Assembly (NCBI RefSeq): GCF_044324875.1
Contig: NZ_CP172185.1
Origin: Escherichia coli
GTDB lineage: Bacteria > Pseudomonadota > Gammaproteobacteria > Enterobacterales > Enterobacteriaceae
Strand: one strand, 5' to 3'
DNA length: 64,000 nucleotides
The notes below the pieces were generated by a model. That model made no database searches. It worked only from the letters and a program-made list of their open reading frames with translations, and had not been told where the DNA came from. Shown piece after piece: positions 9,236-62,982 of this stretch (position 1 is the first letter of the stretch; every line of letters begins with the position of its first letter). Position numbers and translations under genes: made by a program.

Positions 9236-9312
9236 GGCTACGTAGCTCAGTTGGTTAGAGCACATCACTCATAATGATGGGGTCACAGGTTCGAATCCCG
9301 TCGTAGCCACCA
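9236..9312 (+). tRNA. metT: tRNA-Met (CAU, elongator)
   Basis: GGCTACGTAGCTCAGTTGGTTAGAGC...CTCATAA anticodon loop...GGTTCGAATCC...GCCACCA; cloverleaf with encoded CCA. Confidence 0.95.
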
Positions 9313-9321
9313 TCTTTTTTT

Positions 9322-9406
9322 GCGGGAGTGGCGAAATTGGTAGACGCACCAGATTTAGGTTCTGGCACCGCAAGGTGTGCGAGTTCAAGTCTCGCCTCCC
9401 GCACCA
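9322..9406 (+). tRNA. leuW: tRNA-Leu (UAG)
   Basis: GCGGGAGTGGCGAAATTGGTAGACGC...anticodon loop TTTAGGT...long variable arm...GCACCA. Confidence 0.93.
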
Positions 9407-9429
9407 TTCACCAGAAAGCGTTGTACGGA

Positions 9430-9504
9430 TGGGGTATCGCCAAGCGGTAAGGCACCGGTTTTTGATACCGGCATTCCCTGGTTCGAATCCAGGTACCCCA
9501 GCCA
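9430..9504 (+). tRNA. glnU: tRNA-Gln (UUG)
   Basis: TGGGGTATCGCCAAGCGGTAAGGCACCGGTTTTTGATACCGG...GGTTCGAATCC...CCCAGCCA; anticodon TTG. Confidence 0.93.
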
Positions 9505-9519
9505 TCGAAGAAACAATCT

Positions 9520-9596
9520 GGCTACGTAGCTCAGTTGGTTAGAGCACATCACTCATAATGATGGGGTCACAGGTTCGAATCCCGTCGTAGCCACCA
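9520..9596 (+). tRNA. metU: tRNA-Met (CAU, elongator), second copy
   Basis: Identical to 9236-9312. Confidence 0.95.
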
Positions 9597-9644
9597 AATT
9601 CTGAATGTGTCGAATGCGTTCGGCAAATTCACAAACCAATTTGT

Positions 9645-9719
9645 TGGGGTATCGCCAAGCGGTAAGGCACCGGATTCTGATTCCGGCATTCCGAGGTTCG
9701 AATCCTCGTACCCCAGCCA
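9645..9719 (+). tRNA. glnV: tRNA-Gln (CUG)
   Basis: TGGGGTATCGCCAAGCGGTAAGGCACCGGATTCTGATTCCGG...GGTTCGAATCC; anticodon CTG. Confidence 0.93.
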
Positions 9720-16883: not shown

Positions 16884-18761
16884 TTACGGTTCAGGGATAC
16901 AAGCCACATCGCCATATTGGGGATGCCGAATAATTGCCTGCGGATCAAGCGAGCGCGTCCTGTCCATTTGGATTAACCCGTTCTTCGCCATAACAAATAT
17001 CTTTCTACCATCCGCTGAAAAACGAAGATGATTAACGTAGCTGGCAGGATAAACGCCAATAATCTGCCCGGCATTAATATTGAGCAGAATGACATAACCT
17101 TGCAGGCCATATGACACCAACGCTAAATACTGACCGTCCGGGCTAATACCCTCAACGGAATAAACGCTCCTGCTACACCATTGCGTCATAATGCTGGCTT
17201 GCTGATCCCCAACTCTTATACGTGAAATCCCCTGGCTGTCGGCAAAAATTACATCCCCGTTTTCAGGTCGAAAACGCATCGCCGATATCGTTCCACGCGC
17301 ATCACTAGCCGGATAGCTTTCTTTTTGATGCGTGATGGTATTGATGCGTACAATGTCACCTCTGACCATACCGGGTATCAACAATGTTTTTTCATCCGGG
17401 GAAAGTGCCATAACCCAGGCGCCTGGTTTACCGCTCGTCCCCGTCCCGTCGTATTTCTCCAGCGGGATATCCGCCACATGCTGATAAGCCACCAGATCAA
17501 TGGCTGACACACTATTACTGGTGCGATTCATCACCCAGGCTTTTGTGCCATCGCGCGAGAGGATAAGGCTGTCAGGATGTGCGCCGGTGGTAATCGACTG
17601 AATAATCTCCCCCGTCGCCACGTTAATGACCGATAACGCATTCGCTTCAAATGAAGTTGCATAAAGCAACGTTTCATCCGGGCTTAACGCCAGCGATCTG
17701 ACGGCCTGATCTTTACAGCCACCACAATGTTTGAGTGACTTTTCTTTCGCTATGGGCGCTGTAAAGGTATGCAGGATTTTCTTTTGTCCGAGGTCGAAAA
17801 CAACAATGCTGTTGGTGTTTTCAATTGCGGCATACAACGTATTACCATCCCGACTGATCGCCATATCATGGATATCGGCAATCTCAGCGAGCAAATCACC
17901 ACTGGCCTGCTCACGACTTACCGGAGCGGATAATGTTTCCCTGAGGGCGTTGCGCTCCTCCACTAACTGCTGCTTTTTTTGTCGTCGCTCTTGTTCAATC
18001 TCCTGCGGATAAAACTCTTCACGCAGGCTGTGCCTGACCAGTAAAACTGATTCATCAATCTGCTGCTGCACAAGCCAGATAGCCCCGGTAAGAAGAAGAC
18101 TGCCCGCAACAATAATCCCGCCTTCCGTAACAAGCCGGTTTTGCCCAGATAAACGCGCACTCAGCCACCCCAACGCACCACCCGCAATCAGGCCGCCAAT
18201 ATGACAAGCATTATCTATTCCTGTTTGCCGGGCACCATACAACAGTGTCAGCGCCACCATACCCAACAGAGAAAATACTCGCCGCTGGTTTTTATGGTAT
18301 GTGCCCGCACCTGAAGCAAGCTGTGTTGCTATCGCAGCGCCAGCAATTCCCATAATTGCCCCGGATGCCCCAACGCTGATGACTATCTGCTCACTTTCGC
18401 GTAACGCATAACAGGCGCTGATTAGCCCACCAAAGACGCCAGAGAATAGCCAGACAATCAGGAGTCGCCATTTCCCCAGTATCCGTTCCGCCACTGCCCC
18501 CACCACCAGGAGTGCAAACATATTCATCAGCAAATGGGGAAAACTACTGTGCAGAAAGACACTGCTCAATAAGCGCCAGGGTTCACCCGACAACGTGAGA
18601 GAAGCAACGTTAGCACCAAGATGGATGAGTGCGGATTGATCGACGTCTTCATAACTCATCCATTGTGCGAGATAACAAAATATCCCAACACAGAGCGCAA
18701 AAAGGATAAGAGTTATTGCGGGTAATTGAACATTTAACGGCTTAACCGAAGATGCAGACAT
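16884..18761 (-). CDS. Rhomboid-family intramembrane serine protease fused to C-terminal YVTN-type beta-propeller domain (625 aa)
   Basis: AAGGA-like RBS before ATG (reverse complement at 18759-18761); N-terminal 6-TM rhomboid core with WR loop motif, GASG (Ser133) and CHIGGLIAG (His187); 7th TM; coiled-coil-like EEFYPQEIEQERRQKKQQLVEERNALRE; then six repeats of the S-x-DG-x-x-LY/V...N-S-V-S-V/I-D type. Confidence 0.8.
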   Translation of the reverse strand: MSASSVKPLNVQLPAITLILFALCVGIFCYLAQWMSYEDVDQSALIHLGANVASLTLSGEPWRLLSSVFLHSSFPHLLMNMFALLVVGAVAERILGKWRLLIVWLFSGVFGGLISACYALRESEQIVISVGASGAIMGIAGAAIATQLASGAGTYHKNQRRVFSLLGMVALTLLYGARQTGIDNACHIGGLIAGGALGWLSARLSGQNRLVTEGGIIVAGSLLLTGAIWLVQQQIDESVLLVRHSLREEFYPQEIEQERRQKKQQLVEERNALRETLSAPVSREQASGDLLAEIADIHDMAISRDGNTLYAAIENTNSIVVFDLGQKKILHTFTAPIAKEKSLKHCGGCKDQAVRSLALSPDETLLYATSFEANALSVINVATGEIIQSITTGAHPDSLILSRDGTKAWVMNRTSNSVSAIDLVAYQHVADIPLEKYDGTGTSGKPGAWVMALSPDEKTLLIPGMVRGDIVRINTITHQKESYPASDARGTISAMRFRPENGDVIFADSQGISRIRVGDQQASIMTQWCSRSVYSVEGISPDGQYLALVSYGLQGYVILLNINAGQIIGVYPASYVNHLRFSADGRKIFVMAKNGLIQMDRTRSLDPQAIIRHPQYGDVACIPEP

Positions 18762-19215
18762 GAGGTAATTCTTCCTTGAAAAGACAGGTAAAAAGCATTT
18801 TTCTCGTGTGCAGTTACCATCCCGGCAAACGTCCCATACCGAAAAGTTAACCCTGTCCGAAATATGACTTTTTCAGCCTGAAATTACAATCGTAATTAAT
18901 TCACCCCTAACTATTTTTTGGCATGTAAGTTGCTTTAATTACTGTGTAAGCAATGAAATCAGCCGCAACGAAACCGGGTTGCACCACCACAAATCAACGG
19001 TAGCGCCAAAAAGGTGCGGTTTAAGAATTTTGCTTCGGAATGGTGCGGCGCATCTCGCAAAAACAAACAATAAAACAGCAATATCTTTACATTTAGCCAA
19101 ACTAAATGTTACCTAACAAGCACAACACTGCACAATAAAGTTGCAGATGATAACAACACAAACACTCACAACGGGTATCCATGCGTTCTTAACGCAGAAG
19201 ATAAAGGAGTTGGAT

Positions 19216-20124
19216 ATGCAATTACGTAAACCTGCCACAGCAATCCTGGCCCTGGCGCTTTCCGCAGGACTGGCACAGGCAGATGACGCCGCCCCGGCAG
19301 CGGGCAGTACGCTGGACAAAATCGCCAAAAACGGTGTGATTGTCGTCGGTCACCGTGAATCTTCAGTACCTTTCTCTTATTACGACAATCAGCAAAAAGT
19401 GGTGGGTTACTCGCAGGATTACTCCAACGCCATTGTTGAAGCAGTGAAAAAGAAACTCAACAAACCGGACTTGCAGGTGAAACTGATTCCGATCACCTCA
19501 CAAAACCGTATTCCTCTGCTGCAAAACGGCACTTTCGATTTTGAATGTGGTTCTACCACCAATAACGTCGAACGCCAGAAACAGGCGGCTTTCTCTGACA
19601 CTATTTTCGTGGTCGGTACGCGCCTGCTGACCAAAAAGGGCGGCGATATCAAAGATTTTGCCGACCTGAAAGGCAAAGCCGTAGTCGTCACTTCCGGCAC
19701 TACCTCTGAAGTTTTGCTCAACAAATTGAATGAAGAGCAAAAAATGAATATGCGCATCATCAGCGCCAAAGATCACGGTGACTCTTTCCGCACCCTGGAA
19801 AGCGGTCGTGCTGTTGCCTTTATGATGGATGACGCTCTGCTGGCAGGTGAACGTGCGAAAGCGAAGAAACCGGACAACTGGGAAATCGTCGGCAAGCCGC
19901 AGTCTCAGGAAGCCTACGGTTGTATGTTGCGTAAAGATGATCCGCAGTTCAAAAAGCTGATGGATGACACCATCGCGCAGGTGCAGACCTCCGGTGAAGC
20001 GGAAAAATGGTTTGATAAGTGGTTCAAAAATCCCATTCCGCCGAAAAACCTGAACATGAATTTCGAGCTGTCAGACGAAATGAAAGCACTGTTCAAAGAA
20101 CCGAATGATAAGGCACTGAACTAA
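19216..20124 (+). CDS. gltI: Glutamate/aspartate ABC transporter periplasmic binding protein
   Basis: 302 aa MQLRKPATAILALALSAGLAQA...; ATG at 19216 after AAGGAG RBS; ORF-track start 19141 is an upstream extension. Confidence 0.95.
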   Translation: MQLRKPATAILALALSAGLAQADDAAPAAGSTLDKIAKNGVIVVGHRESSVPFSYYDNQQKVVGYSQDYSNAIVEAVKKKLNKPDLQVKLIPITSQNRIPLLQNGTFDFECGSTTNNVERQKQAAFSDTIFVVGTRLLTKKGGDIKDFADLKGKAVVVTSGTTSEVLLNKLNEEQKMNMRIISAKDHGDSFRTLESGRAVAFMMDDALLAGERAKAKKPDNWEIVGKPQSQEAYGCMLRKDDPQFKKLMDDTIAQVQTSGEAEKWFDKWFKNPIPPKNLNMNFELSDEMKALFKEPNDKALN

Positions 20125-20281
20125 TTACAAGAACCAGGGGCGGAAATTCCAGCCCTCTCGATTGTTACGTAGCACGGACAGACTATACGCCTGATGGTCG
20201 TTCCCCATCGGGCCTGAAAACCGCAATACGCTGGGTAACAATCTTCGAGGGTAGCAGTTAACGCTGCTACCCTCTTTTTTC
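20125..20281 (+). ncRNA. sroC: Candidate SroC sRNA (gltI 3'UTR / gltI-gltJ spacer-derived), ends at intrinsic terminator
   Basis: About 160-nt non-coding spacer between gltI stop and gltJ start ending in GGGTAGCAG-ttaacg-CTGCTACCC-TCTTTTTT hairpin; position corresponds to the known SroC locus. Confidence 0.5.
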
Positions 20282-20293
20282 TGGAGTAGATTT

Positions 20294-21034
20294 ATGTCTA
20301 TAGACTGGAACTGGGGTATTTTTTTACAACAAGCCCCGTTCGGCAACACCACCTATCTTGGTTGGATCTGGAGTGGTTTTCAGGTGACGATCGCTTTGTC
20401 GATCTGCGCCTGGATTATCGCTTTCCTCGTCGGTTCATTTTTCGGCATTTTACGTACCGTTCCAAACCGTTTTCTCTCCGGTCTGGGTACGTTGTATGTC
20501 GAACTGTTCCGCAACGTGCCGTTGATTGTGCAATTCTTTACCTGGTATCTGGTGATCCCGGAGCTGCTGCCGGAGAAAATCGGCATGTGGTTTAAGGCCG
20601 AGCTGGATCCCAATATTCAGTTTTTCCTTTCATCCATGCTCTGCCTGGGGCTGTTTACCGCCGCCCGTGTTTGCGAACAGGTACGCGCCGCGATCCAGTC
20701 GCTGCCGCGAGGGCAAAAAAATGCCGCGCTGGCGATGGGCCTGACGCTACCGCAGGCTTATCGATACGTACTGTTGCCTAACGCTTATCGCGTTATCGTC
20801 CCGCCGATGACCTCCGAGATGATGAACCTGGTGAAAAACTCTGCCATCGCCTCGACTATTGGTCTGGTGGATATGGCGGCGCAGGCGGGTAAATTGCTTG
20901 ATTACTCAGCCCACGCCTGGGAGTCGTTTACCGCCATCACGCTGGCGTATGTATTGATTAACGCTTTTATCATGCTGGTGATGACGCTGGTTGAACGTAA
21001 AGTTCGCCTGCCTGGCAACATGGGGGGCAAATAA
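20294..21034 (+). CDS. gltJ: Glutamate/aspartate ABC transporter permease
   Basis: 246 aa multi-TM permease [24 protein letters not shown]...; operon order. Confidence 0.95.
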
Positions 21035-21708
21035 TGTACGAGTTTGACTGGAGTTCCATTGTCCCTTCCCTGCCATATCTGCTCGACGGGCTGGTGATCA
21101 CGCTGAAAATCACCGTCACAGCAGTCGTGATTGGTATTTTGTGGGGCACCATGCTGGCGGTGATGCGCTTGTCCAGCTTTGCGCCCGTAGCGTGGTTTGC
21201 CAAAGCCTACGTTAACGTATTCCGCTCGATTCCTTTAGTTATGGTTTTGCTGTGGTTTTACCTGATCGTGCCGGGTTTTCTGCAAAACGTACTGGGATTA
21301 TCACCAAAAAATGACATCCGTTTAATTTCGGCGATGGTGGCGTTTTCGATGTTTGAAGCAGCCTACTATTCAGAGATTATCCGTGCCGGTATTCAAAGTA
21401 TTTCCCGTGGTCAGTCGAGCGCCGCGCTGGCGTTGGGGATGACTCACTGGCAGTCGATGAAACTGATTATTCTGCCGCAGGCTTTCCGCGCAATGGTGCC
21501 GCTGCTGCTCACTCAGGGCATCGTACTGTTCCAGGATACCTCGCTGGTGTATGTGTTATCTCTGGCCGATTTCTTCCGTACCGCTTCAACCATTGGTGAA
21601 CGTGATGGTACGCAGGTCGAGATGATCCTGTTTGCCGGATTTGTTTATTTCGTTATTAGCCTTAGCGCGTCGTTGTTGGTCAGCTACTTGAAAAGAAGGA
21701 CAGCATAA
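21034..21708 (+). CDS. gltK: Glutamate/aspartate ABC transporter permease
   Basis: 224 aa [24 protein letters not shown]...; 1-bp overlap with gltJ. Confidence 0.95.
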
Positions 21709-22433
21709 TGATTACCCTGAAAAATGTTTCAAAATGGTATGGTCACTTTCAGGTGCTGACCGACTGCTCAACCGAAGTGAAAAAAGGCGAAGTGGTGGTG
21801 GTTTGCGGCCCGTCTGGTTCCGGCAAATCAACGCTGATTAAAACCGTCAACGGCCTCGAACCGGTGCAGCAAGGTGAAATTACCGTCGATGGCATCGTGG
21901 TTAACGATAAGAAAACCGATCTGGCAAAGCTGCGTTCCCGCGTCGGGATGGTGTTCCAGCATTTCGAGTTGTTCCCCCATTTGTCGATTATTGAAAACCT
22001 GACCCTGGCGCAGGTGAAAGTGCTTAAACGCGATAAAGCACCCGCTCGTGAAAAAGCATTGAAATTGCTGGAGCGCGTCGGGCTTTCCGCTCATGCCAAT
22101 AAGTTTCCGGCGCAGCTTTCCGGCGGTCAGCAGCAGCGTGTGGCGATCGCTCGCGCATTGTGCATGGATCCTATTGCCATGCTGTTCGACGAACCGACAT
22201 CGGCGCTGGATCCGGAGATGATCAACGAAGTGCTGGACGTAATGGTCGAACTGGCGAACGAAGGAATGACCATGATGGTGGTGACCCACGAAATGGGCTT
22301 TGCCCGTAAAGTGGCGAATCGGGTGATCTTTATGGACGAGGGTAAAATTGTCGAAGACTCGCCGAAAGACGCTTTCTTCGATGATCCGAAATCGGACCGC
22401 GCAAAAGACTTCCTCGCGAAAATCCTGCATTAA
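21708..22433 (+). CDS. gltL: Glutamate/aspartate ABC transporter ATP-binding protein
   Basis: 241 aa with Walker [13 protein letters not shown] signature LSGGQQQR, Walker [12 protein letters not shown]. Confidence 0.96.
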
Positions 22434-22440
22434 TCACTCT

Positions 22441-22464
22441 GGCGCGCATACCCAAGTGCGCGCC
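22441..22464 (+). terminator. Hairpin after gltL (putative terminator)
   Basis: GGCGCGCA-tacccaag-TGCGCGCC perfect 8-bp GC-rich stem immediately after stop; weak U tract. Confidence 0.4.
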
Positions 22465-22550
22465 ATCTCACGCTTTATCGTTTCGCCCCTCGTATCTGTT
22501 ACATCCTGGCGTTACCCTTGTCGCAAAGAAGCACACAACAAGGAGCAACA

Positions 22551-23486
22551 ATGGCACTGCCAATTCTGTTAGATTGCGACCCAGGTCATGATGACGCTAT
22601 CGCAATAGTTCTCGCCCTCGCCTCACCAGAGCTTGATGTCAAAGCAATTACGTCTTCCGCCGGAAACCAGACACCAGAAAAAACCTTACGCAATGTTCTG
22701 CGTATGCTGACCTTGCTTAATCGCACCGATATTCCGGTGGCAGGCGGCGCGGTAAAACCGTTAATGCGTGAGTTGATTATCGCGGACAATGTGCACGGCG
22801 AAAGCGGTCTCGACGGCCCGGCATTACCGGAACCGACGTTCGCACCGCAAAACTGTACGGCGGTGGAGCTGATGGCGAAAACGCTGCGTGAAAGTGCGAA
22901 ACCTGTCACGATTGTTTCTACCGGGCCGCAAACTAACGTTGCCTTGCTGCTCAATAGCCATCCGGAACTGCATAGCAAAATTGCTCGTATCGTGATTATG
23001 GGCGGCGCAATGGGGCTTGGTAACTGGACGCCTGCGGCTGAATTTAATATTTACGTTGACCCGGAAGCGGCAGAAATTGTTTTCCAGTCAGGGATCCCGG
23101 TGGTGATGGCCGGTCTGGATGTTACTCATAAAGCGCAAATCCACGTTGAAGACACCGAGCGTTTCCGCGCGATTGGCAACCCTGTTTCAACCATTGTTGC
23201 CGAACTGCTGGATTTCTTCCTCGAATATCATAAAGACGAAAAATGGGGCTTTGTCGGCGCACCGCTGCATGACCCATGCACCATCGCCTGGCTGTTAAAA
23301 CCGGAGTTGTTTACCACTGTTGAGCGCTGGGTTGGCGTGGAAACACAAGGGAAATATACCCAGGGTATGACGGTTGTTGATTATTATTATCTGACCGGCA
23401 ATAAACCGAATGCCACTGTAATGGTCGATGTTGATCGTCAGGGCGTTGTTGATTTACTGGCTGATTGTCTGAAATTTTACGCTTAA
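22551..23486 (+). CDS. rihA: Pyrimidine-specific ribonucleoside hydrolase
   Basis: 311 aa [34 protein letters not shown]...; DxDxxxDD nucleoside hydrolase motif. Confidence 0.95.
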
Positions 23487-49402: not shown

Positions 49403-49432
49403 AAAAAAAACCCGCTGATTAAGCGGGTTTTG
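49403..49432. terminator. Bidirectional rho-independent terminator between crcB and cspE
   Basis: AAAAAAAACCCGC-tgattaa-GCGGGTTTT. Confidence 0.8.
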
Positions 49433-49450
49433 AATTCTTGCTGACGTATC

Positions 49451-49660
49451 TTACAGAGCGATTACGTTTGCAGCAGAAGGGCCTTTGGCACCGTTAGTGA
49501 TTTCGAACTCTACGCGCTGACCTTCAGCAAGAGTTTTAAAACCATTAGTCTGGATTGCAGAGAAGTGTACGAACACGTCTTTGCTGCCGTCTTCCGGAGT
49601 AATGAAACCGAATCCTTTGGACTCATTAAACCACTTAACGTTACCTTTAATCTTAGACAT
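49451..49660 (-). CDS. cspE: Cold-shock-domain protein CspE
   Basis: 69 aa [37 protein letters not shown]...; ORF-track 97-aa version is an upstream extension. Confidence 0.95.
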
Positions 49661-49834
49661 CAAAATTACCTTTACATGAAAAATAGACACAAATGCTGTG
49701 TCGGTTACCAGTACACCAATTGTGGTACGCTTTGTCCAGTGCAACTTTACTAAAAAGTGATAAAAGTCGCGTTATTTTTGATGTTAATTATTTTACCCAT
49801 TGATTTTAAAGAGTTTACTAAAATTTCATTTGTC

Positions 49835-62753: not shown

Positions 62754-62982
62754 TCCTCTGATTTACAAAACACGCTAATTCGTCTTCCATAAACCATGAC
62801 GATTAAGATTTATACATAATGCACTGCATTGAGGAATTCCCTGAATGTGACGCAAATCACTTCAAAGAGTGAGCAACAGTCAGTATCATCATGTGAGTTA
62901 AACCCTCGCCGCCTGACGGTGAGGGTTTTCTTTTGGGTATGTTTATCTGCGACACTCGCAGTACCGACGACATGGAGTAAAA

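What the first reader, a model, noticed from the sequence alone, without database searches (positions are those of the whole stretch)
20125..20281. gltI-gltJ spacer consistent with the SroC sRNA locus
The 157-nt spacer after the gltI stop is non-coding and ends in a strong intrinsic terminator (GGGTAGCAG...CTGCTACCC-TCTTTTTT) just before the gltJ RBS. SroC is a known sRNA generated from the gltIJKL mRNA at this position, acting as a sponge for GcvB.
Basis: established knowledge. Interest (0 to 1): 0.2.

Follow-up and report, generated by a model that had tools for sequence, protein, structure and literature searches.

The report
Known SroC small RNA, gltI–gltJ spacer
The stretch between the gltI and gltJ genes is the well-studied E. 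coli small RNA SroC, base-for-base identical to the K-12 copy, which is cut from the glutamate/aspartate transporter mRNA and soaks up the regulator RNA GcvB; this is an ordinary, already-described feature.

Summary
The observation and the interpretation both hold. Rfam's sroC model (RF00369) matches window 20120..20282 (+) over its full length at 174.8 bits (gathering score 45, E 7e-37). These 163 nt are identical to the annotated sroC gene (b4763) of E. coli K-12 MG1655. They lie in the same place: starting 5 nt inside the end of gltI and ending 11 nt before the gltJ start codon. The 3' end is a 12-bp hairpin followed by six T. The RNA folds far better than shuffles (z -6.5), and the fold is supported by compensatory changes across 15 enterobacterial species. 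Both published GcvB-pairing sites are present with the published 14-nt spacing: BS1 at 20176-20183 and BS2 at 20198-20204, the latter being exactly the open 7-nt loop of stem-loop 2. The gltI 5' UTR also carries the CA-rich GcvB target that closes the published feedback loop. Small corrections: the mature RNA starts at 20120, not 20125; the whole spacer to the gltJ ATG is 169 nt; the terminator stem is 12 bp. Processing by RNase E, Hfq binding and GcvB decay come from the literature and cannot be tested on sequence. Nothing here is new, and interest is low.

The parts
19150..19172 (+). CA-rich GcvB R1 target site in the gltI 5' UTR (core ATAACAACACAAACACTCACAAC; the predicted duplex spans about 19138-19181). 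It makes the parental mRNA a GcvB target.
   Evidence: Duplex with GcvB 56-95 is -41.1 kcal/mol against -24.0 +/- 3.2 for 500 shuffles, none reaching it. The paper's deltaCA mutant refers to this site.
19216..20124 (+). gltI, periplasmic glutamate/aspartate-binding protein (302 aa), the parental gene of SroC
   Evidence: NCBIfam NF008063 at 668.5 bits against a cut-off of 375, full length. RefSeq annotates the identical locus in E. coli 042 as gltI.
20120..20282 (+). SroC sRNA, 163 nt. Its 5' end lies 5 nt inside gltI and its 3' end is in the terminator tail.
   Evidence: Rfam RF00369 model positions 1-163, 174.8 bits, E 7.4e-37. 163/163 identical to MG1655 sroC b4763.
20137..20156 (+). SroC stem-loop 1
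   Evidence: Present in the MFE and centroid fold. Helix 1 in the 15-species alignment is 94% paired with one compensatory pair.
20160..20242 (+). Long-range helix (CGAUUGUUA ... UAACAAUCG) enclosing BS1 and stem-loop 2
   Evidence: Helix 2 is 97.6% paired, and two of its pairs have 6 sequences each changed on both sides.
20176..20183 (+). BS1, GGACAGAC, which pairs with GcvB 156-163 (GUCUGUCC, the R3/SL4 region). C at 20179 pairs with GcvB G160.
   Evidence: Perfect 8-bp complement; site duplex -15.3 kcal/mol. Matches SroC C63 / GcvB G160 of PMC4474525, whose Salmonella numbering is E. coli +3.
20189..20213 (+). SroC stem-loop 2 (9-bp stem, 7-nt loop)
   Evidence: Helix 5 is 97% paired with three compensatory pairs.
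20198..20204 (+). BS2, UCGUUCC, the entire loop of stem-loop 2, which pairs with GcvB 13-19 (GGAACGA, SL1). C at 20203 pairs with GcvB G14.
   Evidence: Perfect 7-bp complement lying 14 nt after BS1, as published. Unpaired probability 1.0. Invariant in all 15 species although it was not part of the search pattern.
20247..20280 (+). Leaky Rho-independent terminator: 12-bp hairpin (20247-20274, loop TAAC) plus T6 (20275-20280). It forms the 3' end of both the monocistronic gltI mRNA and SroC.
   Evidence: hairpin -21.3 kcal/mol. 'Leaky' is from PMC4474525.
20283..20286 (+). gltJ Shine-Dalgarno GGAG, 7 nt before the ATG
   Evidence: Read directly from the sequence.
20294..22433 (+). gltJ (20294-21034), gltK (21034-21708) and gltL (21708-22433), expressed only by read-through of the SroC terminator
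   Evidence: ORFs. GltK matches NF011687 at 479.2 bits against a cut-off of 318. gltJ and gltL are named in the RefSeq annotation of the identical locus.

Best explanation
Window 20120-20282 (+) is the sroC gene of Escherichia coli. Shown here: family membership, sequence identity to the K-12 gene, position in the operon, the terminator, a fold supported by covariation, and both GcvB-complementary sites. Taken from the literature for this same sequence or its Salmonella homologue: transcription from the single gltIJKL promoter often stops at the leaky intrinsic terminator after gltI. RNase E, working from the 5' end with Hfq bound, trims the gltI mRNA down to a stable 163-nt 3' fragment. That fragment pairs through BS1 and BS2 with two distant sites of the GcvB sRNA (the R3/SL4 region and SL1) and triggers RNase E decay of GcvB without being consumed. 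This relieves GcvB repression of many amino-acid transport and metabolism mRNAs, including gltI itself, whose 5' UTR carries a GcvB R1 site. The same terminator also sets a higher yield of the binding protein GltI than of GltJKL.
For: Rfam RF00369 matches over its full length at 174.8 bits against 45, E 7.4e-37. The sequence is 163/163 identical to MG1655 sroC b4763 with the same overlap of gltI and the same distance to gltJ. It is present once per genome in 5421 of 5426 complete E. coli genomes, at 99% identity or more in 5249. The terminator and fold give z -6.5. In 15 species of Escherichia, Salmonella, Citrobacter, Intestinirhabdus and one MAG, 97.1% of cells are paired against 33-50% when partners are slid, and 6 pairs are compensatory against 0-3 when slid. 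BS1 and BS2 are perfect 8- and 7-nt complements of GcvB 156-163 and 13-19, lie 14 nt apart, and place the mutated C residues opposite G160 and G14 exactly as in PMC4474525. BS2 is the fully accessible SL2 loop. A GcvB R1 site is in the gltI 5' UTR. Literature: RNase E/Hfq biogenesis, compensatory mutants and a GcvB half-life rising from 1.7 to over 15 min in a sroC deletion. The E. coli homologues are reported as equally functional. E. coli RIL-seq gives 67,138 GcvB-SroC chimeras, about 70% of GcvB in stationary phase. No sigma-70-like promoter was found on the + strand in 18700-22700, which is consistent with processing rather than separate transcription (weak evidence).
Against: Nothing contradicts it. 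There are limits. Complementarity of 7-8 nt is not distinctive statistically, since 32% of shuffled SroC sequences have an 8-mer or longer complement in GcvB, so the pairing rests on published mutagenesis and on exact positional agreement. BS1 invariance in my species set is by construction, because BS1 was in the search pattern. The exact 5' end is uncertain by a few nt: Salmonella numbering is offset by 3. Expression in this particular strain was not observed.
Confidence: 0.97

Rival explanations
1. The spacer is only an intra-operon attenuator that sets the GltI to GltJKL ratio, and the RNA fragment is an inert decay by-product.
For: A strong hairpin plus T6 sits between the binding-protein gene and the permease genes. 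The paper agrees that the terminator produces the monocistronic gltI mRNA.
Against: An attenuator needs only the hairpin, yet about 125 nt upstream of it are conserved with compensatory changes, and the 7-nt BS2 loop is invariant across genera. Published compensatory mutants and GcvB half-life data show a trans function. The attenuator role is real but is part of the SroC model, not an alternative to it.
Confidence: 0.02
2. In addition to acting as a sponge, the conserved body of SroC is a cis-acting or factor-binding element that regulates termination or read-through into gltJKL.
For: Long invariant stretches lie outside BS1 and BS2, for example CCCUCUCGAUUG and AACAAUCUUCGAGGGUAG. The authors raise this possibility themselves. 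Escherichia has a lengthened terminator hairpin, -21.3 against -13.1 kcal/mol.
Against: No Rfam riboswitch or leader family matches here. The conserved stretches could equally serve Hfq binding, RNase E resistance, or pairing with other partners (MgrR, fliE/flhBAE mRNAs). There is no direct evidence.
Confidence: 0.1
3. The spacer is a REP/BIME-type repeated palindromic element that stabilises upstream mRNA, as in other ABC-transporter operons.
For: It sits after a periplasmic binding-protein gene and has strong secondary structure.
Against: It is single-copy, with a median of 1 and at most 2 places per E. coli genome. It matches a specific sRNA family over its full length.
Confidence: 0.005
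4. The region encodes a small protein, such as the 75-aa GTG ORF on the minus strand at 20125-20352.
For: The ORF appears in the mechanical list.
Against: It runs antisense to gltJ's start and to SroC. There is no + strand ORF of 20 aa or more in the spacer. The pattern of change across species is paired-stem covariation, not codon-wise. It is not annotated in MG1655 or E. coli 042.
Confidence: 0.005

Closest known systems
SroC sRNA (Rfam RF00369; E. coli K-12 sroC b4763; Vogel et al. 2003; Miyakoshi, Chao & Vogel 2015, PMC4474525)
   Same: Identical 163-nt sequence, same gltI-gltJ position and strand, same terminator, same BS1 and BS2 sites and spacing, and the same GcvB site in the gltI 5' UTR.
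   Different: Nothing in the RNA itself. The only difference in the 201 bp compared is a synonymous GAT/GAC change in gltI at 20109, upstream of the RNA.
Salmonella / Citrobacter SroC homologues
   Same: Same architecture (SL1, long-range helix, SL2, terminator), the same BS1 and BS2 sequences and the same genomic context.
   Different: The Escherichia copies carry 7 extra nt (CAGTTAA, about 20255-20261) that lengthen the terminator stem from 9 to 12 bp, -21.3 against -13.1 kcal/mol. SL1 and the 5' tail differ in sequence.
Other processed 3'-UTR-derived Hfq sRNAs (SdhX, CpxQ, NarS, OppZ, MalH), as reviewed in PMC9438474
   Same: They are released from a parental mRNA by RNase E and share its Rho-independent terminator.
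   Different: SroC arises inside an operon at a leaky internal terminator, and its main target is another sRNA (sponge action) rather than an mRNA.

Membership tests
SroC (RF00369) | Scores above the Rfam gathering threshold over the full covariance model | tested here: met
   174.8 bits against 45, model positions 1-163 of 163, E 7.4e-37
SroC (RF00369) | Located in the gltI-gltJ spacer, on the operon strand, overlapping the 3' end of gltI | tested here: met
   gltI 19216-20124, SroC 20120-20282, gltJ 20294-21034, the same geometry as MG1655
SroC (RF00369) | Sequence identity to the experimentally defined E. coli sroC | tested here: met
   163/163 identical to b4763
SroC (RF00369) | Rho-independent terminator at the 3' end, shared with the gltI mRNA | tested here: met
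   12-bp stem plus T6 at 20247-20280
SroC (RF00369) | Conserved secondary structure (SL1, long-range helix, SL2) | tested here: met
   z -6.5. 97.1% of cells paired and 6 compensatory pairs, against 33-50% and 0-3 for slid controls, in 15 species
SroC (RF00369) | Two GcvB-complementary sites, BS1 and BS2, 14 nt apart, pairing with GcvB around G160 and G14 | tested here: met
   GGACAGAC at 20176-20183 pairs with GcvB 156-163, and UCGUUCC at 20198-20204 pairs with GcvB 13-19. This matches. Complementarity of this length alone is not above chance.
SroC (RF00369) | 5' end made by RNase E processing of the gltI mRNA (5'-monophosphate, no promoter of its own) | not testable with these tools
   Only weak support: no sigma-70-like site on the + strand. 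Shown experimentally in Salmonella.
SroC (RF00369) | Hfq-dependent destabilisation of GcvB in vivo | not testable with these tools
   From the literature only: Salmonella; E. coli homologues functional; E. coli RIL-seq chimeras
SroC (RF00369) | Second sponge target, MgrR | tested here: inconclusive
   Naive complementarity finds only an 8-mer in the MgrR terminator stem, and about 15% of shuffles do as well. The function is reported in the literature.
REP/BIME intergenic repeat | Dispersed, multi-copy palindromic unit | tested here: not met
   Median of 1 place per genome, maximum 2

The most novel reading that the evidence does not exclude
The invariant stretches of SroC outside the two GcvB contact sites, together with the Escherichia-specific 7-nt lengthening of the terminator hairpin, belong to a regulated termination switch, either cis-acting or bound by a factor. 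This switch would tune both the GltI to GltJKL ratio and SroC release, and hence GcvB levels. Miyakoshi et al. 2015 left the possibility open and nothing here excludes it.
Probability: 0.1. Interest if true: 0.4.

Novelty: already known. Interest (0 to 1): 0.06.

Why it matters
It matters little as a discovery. SroC has been known since 2003 and has been understood mechanistically since 2015 as the model case of an mRNA-derived sponge of an sRNA. The check is useful in two ways. It confirms that the first-stage reader can recognise a real sRNA locus from raw sequence. It also shows that pipeline-annotated RefSeq E. coli genomes list only gltI and gltJ under this stretch, while curated MG1655 annotates sroC, so this functional RNA is easy to miss in automated annotation.

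Tried and rejected
1) Whole-molecule RNAduplex of SroC against GcvB gave -78.8 kcal/mol, within the shuffle range (44 of 300 shuffles as good). It ignores intramolecular structure and is uninformative, so I replaced it with site-level duplexes and accessibility.
2) I tested whether complementarity to GcvB exceeds chance. It does not on its own: 32% of shuffles reach an 8-mer. An extra 8-mer, SroC 101-108 with GcvB 189-196, lies in the GcvB terminator stem and is probably chance.
3) A search for an MgrR pairing site was inconclusive.
4) The first protein-family call used a gltI start one base off and failed. It was corrected to 19216.
5) The first pairing script failed because L002 was not yet on disk. 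I re-ran it with the sequence pasted in.
6) I considered and rejected a REP element, a small ORF and a bare terminator as readings (see the rival explanations).

Full report
OBSERVATION. The gltI ORF ends with TAA at 20122-20124 and gltJ starts with ATG at 20294. No + strand ORF of 20 aa or more lies between them. The complete hairpin is longer: 12 pairs over 20247-20274, with 7 G-C pairs and loop TAAC, followed by T6 at 20275-20280. The gltJ Shine-Dalgarno GGAG follows at 20283-20286. The terminator scan as a whole is not enriched over shuffles (8 sites against 5.0 +/- 2.3), but this site is much the strongest. The 163-nt stretch folds at -66.3 kcal/mol against -40.5 +/- 4.0 for shuffles (z -6.5, 0 of 200 shuffles as good). 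The RNA itself begins 5 nt inside gltI.

IDENTITY. A scan of the whole window against Rfam 15 gives a full-length match to sroC (RF00369) at 20120-20282 (+): 174.8 bits against a gathering score of 45, E 7.4e-37. MG1655 annotates sroC (b4763) at 686681-686843 (-), overlapping the last 5 nt of gltI and ending 11 nt before gltJ. The window's 163 nt are identical to it. The only difference in the 201 bp compared is a synonymous GAT/GAC change in gltI at 20109.

The flanking genes are confirmed. GltI matches NF008063 at 668.5 bits (cut-off 375) and GltK matches NF011687 at 479.2 bits (cut-off 318). gltJ, gltL and rihA are named in the RefSeq annotation of an identical locus in E. coli 042. The SroC sequence occurs in 5421 of 5426 complete E. 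coli genomes, with a median of one copy, at 99% identity or more in 5249. It is therefore a core, single-copy element and not a dispersed repeat.

STRUCTURE AND RELATIVES. One DNA-pattern scan of species-representative genomes returned 18 loci from Escherichia, Salmonella, Citrobacter, Siccibacter, Intestinirhabdus and an Enterobacteriaceae MAG. All 17 that I scanned carry a full-length sroC match at 87-188 bits.

In a 15-sequence alignment, RNAalifold recovers SL1, a long-range helix, SL2 and the terminator. Of all cells, 97.1% form standard pairs, against 33-50% when the 3' partners are slid by 1-3 columns. Six pairs are kept through changes on both sides, against 0-3 in the slid controls. 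No shuffle out of 500 reaches the observed covariation score.

BS2 (UCGUUCC) is invariant in all 15 sequences although it was not part of the search pattern. BS1 was part of the pattern, so its invariance in this set says nothing. The Rfam consensus does show it as largely conserved.

MECHANISM. Miyakoshi, Chao and Vogel 2015 (PMC4474525) report the following for Salmonella.
- SroC is processed from the gltI mRNA by RNase E in a 5'-P- and Hfq-dependent way.
- It pairs with GcvB at two sites of 7-8 nt that are 14 nt apart in SroC.
- C63G/C87G changes in SroC and G160C/G14C changes in GcvB are mutually compensatory.
- Deleting sroC raises the GcvB half-life from 1.7 min to more than 15 min.
- The E. 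coli pair of RNAs is functional as well.

I tested the sequence-level part of this against MG1655 GcvB.
- SroC 57-64, GGACAGAC (window 20176-20183), is a perfect complement of GcvB 156-163. C60 lies opposite G160.
- SroC 79-85, UCGUUCC (window 20198-20204), is a perfect complement of GcvB 13-19. C84 lies opposite G14.
- Exactly 14 nt separate the two sites.
- The constant offset of 3 from Salmonella numbering accounts for every probed position in the paper: SroC G61, G65 and G84, and GcvB G14, G18 and G156.
- BS2 is the whole 7-nt loop of SL2, with an unpaired probability of 1.0. BS1 lies in a partly open internal region, mean 0.59.

Complementarity of this length is not above chance on its own, since 32% of shuffles reach an 8-mer. 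The weight therefore lies in the exact positional agreement with published mutagenesis.

The gltI 5' UTR in the window carries the CA-rich GcvB R1 target (core 19150-19172). The predicted duplex is -41.1 kcal/mol against -24.0 +/- 3.2 for shuffles, with 0 of 500 reaching it. The published loop is thus complete here: GcvB represses gltI, and SroC made from gltI destroys GcvB.

E. coli RIL-seq data summarised in PMC9299463 give 67,138 GcvB-SroC chimeras, about 70% of GcvB in stationary phase. The review PMC9438474 adds MgrR as a second sponged sRNA and fliE/flhBAE as mRNA targets. I could not locate a convincing MgrR site by simple complementarity.

SHOWN VERSUS INFERRED. Shown here: family membership, sequence identity, position in the operon, the terminator, a fold supported by covariation, both GcvB sites, and the GcvB site in the 5' UTR. 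Taken from the literature: RNase E/Hfq biogenesis, GcvB decay, terminator leakiness and the growth phenotype. Not tested: expression in this strain.

RIVALS. A bare attenuator is part of the model rather than an alternative. It does not explain about 125 conserved, covarying nucleotides upstream of the hairpin. A REP element is excluded by copy number. Coding potential is excluded by the lack of a + strand ORF and by stem-wise covariation. A further role as a regulated terminator remains possible and was raised by the authors themselves.

NOVELTY AND VERDICT. This is already known. It is the canonical E. coli sroC allele in its canonical place. Interest is low.

Noticed in passing
window 20255-20261 (terminator hairpin of SroC): All four Escherichia species copies carry 7 extra nt (CAGTTAA) relative to Salmonella, Citrobacter, Intestinirhabdus and the MAG. 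This lengthens the terminator stem from 9 to 12 bp, -21.3 against -13.1 kcal/mol. It could change read-through into gltJKL and the yield of SroC.
   Followed up: partly
L007:3490-3729 (-) and L012:11876-12117 (+) (Siccibacter colletis and S. turicensis): The sroC matches are about 240 nt instead of 163 and score only about 88 bits, which implies an insertion of about 80 nt inside the RNA. I did not align or fold them.
   Followed up: no
window 16884-18761 (-): A 625-aa ORF lies between lnt and gltI, with an N-terminal rhomboid-protease-like region and C-terminal YVTN-type beta-propeller repeats. It is annotated as a 'rhomboid family intramembrane serine protease' in E. coli 042. MG1655 has IS5D/insH3 at this position and no such gene.
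   Followed up: partly
window 9236-9719 (+): The tRNA cluster has 5 genes: Met, Leu(tag), Gln(ttg), Met, Gln(ctg). MG1655 has 7 at the same place, with two copies each of Gln-UUG and Gln-CUG. This is tandem copy-number variation.
   Followed up: yes
window 62829-62937 (+) and 49403-49761 (-): There are two further Rfam matches above gathering score: the rnk leader (124.9 bits) and a cspA-family thermoregulator 5' UTR/CDS (123 bits), the latter probably cspE judging from K-12 gene order as I recall it.
   Followed up: no
window 20220-20227 (SroC 101-108): ACCGCAAU is a perfect 8-nt complement of GcvB 189-196, which lies inside the GcvB terminator stem. It is probably chance, since 32% of shuffles give an 8-mer.
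   Followed up: partly
window 20120-20282, as annotated in public genomes: The pipeline-annotated RefSeq E. coli genomes listed show only gltI and gltJ under this stretch, while curated MG1655 annotates sroC. The sRNA is missing from the routine annotation in the records I saw.
   Followed up: partly
E. coli genome search: Five of 5426 complete E. coli genomes lack the sequence, some genomes have two copies, and two copies lie on records labelled as plasmids. I did not examine any of these.
   Followed up: no
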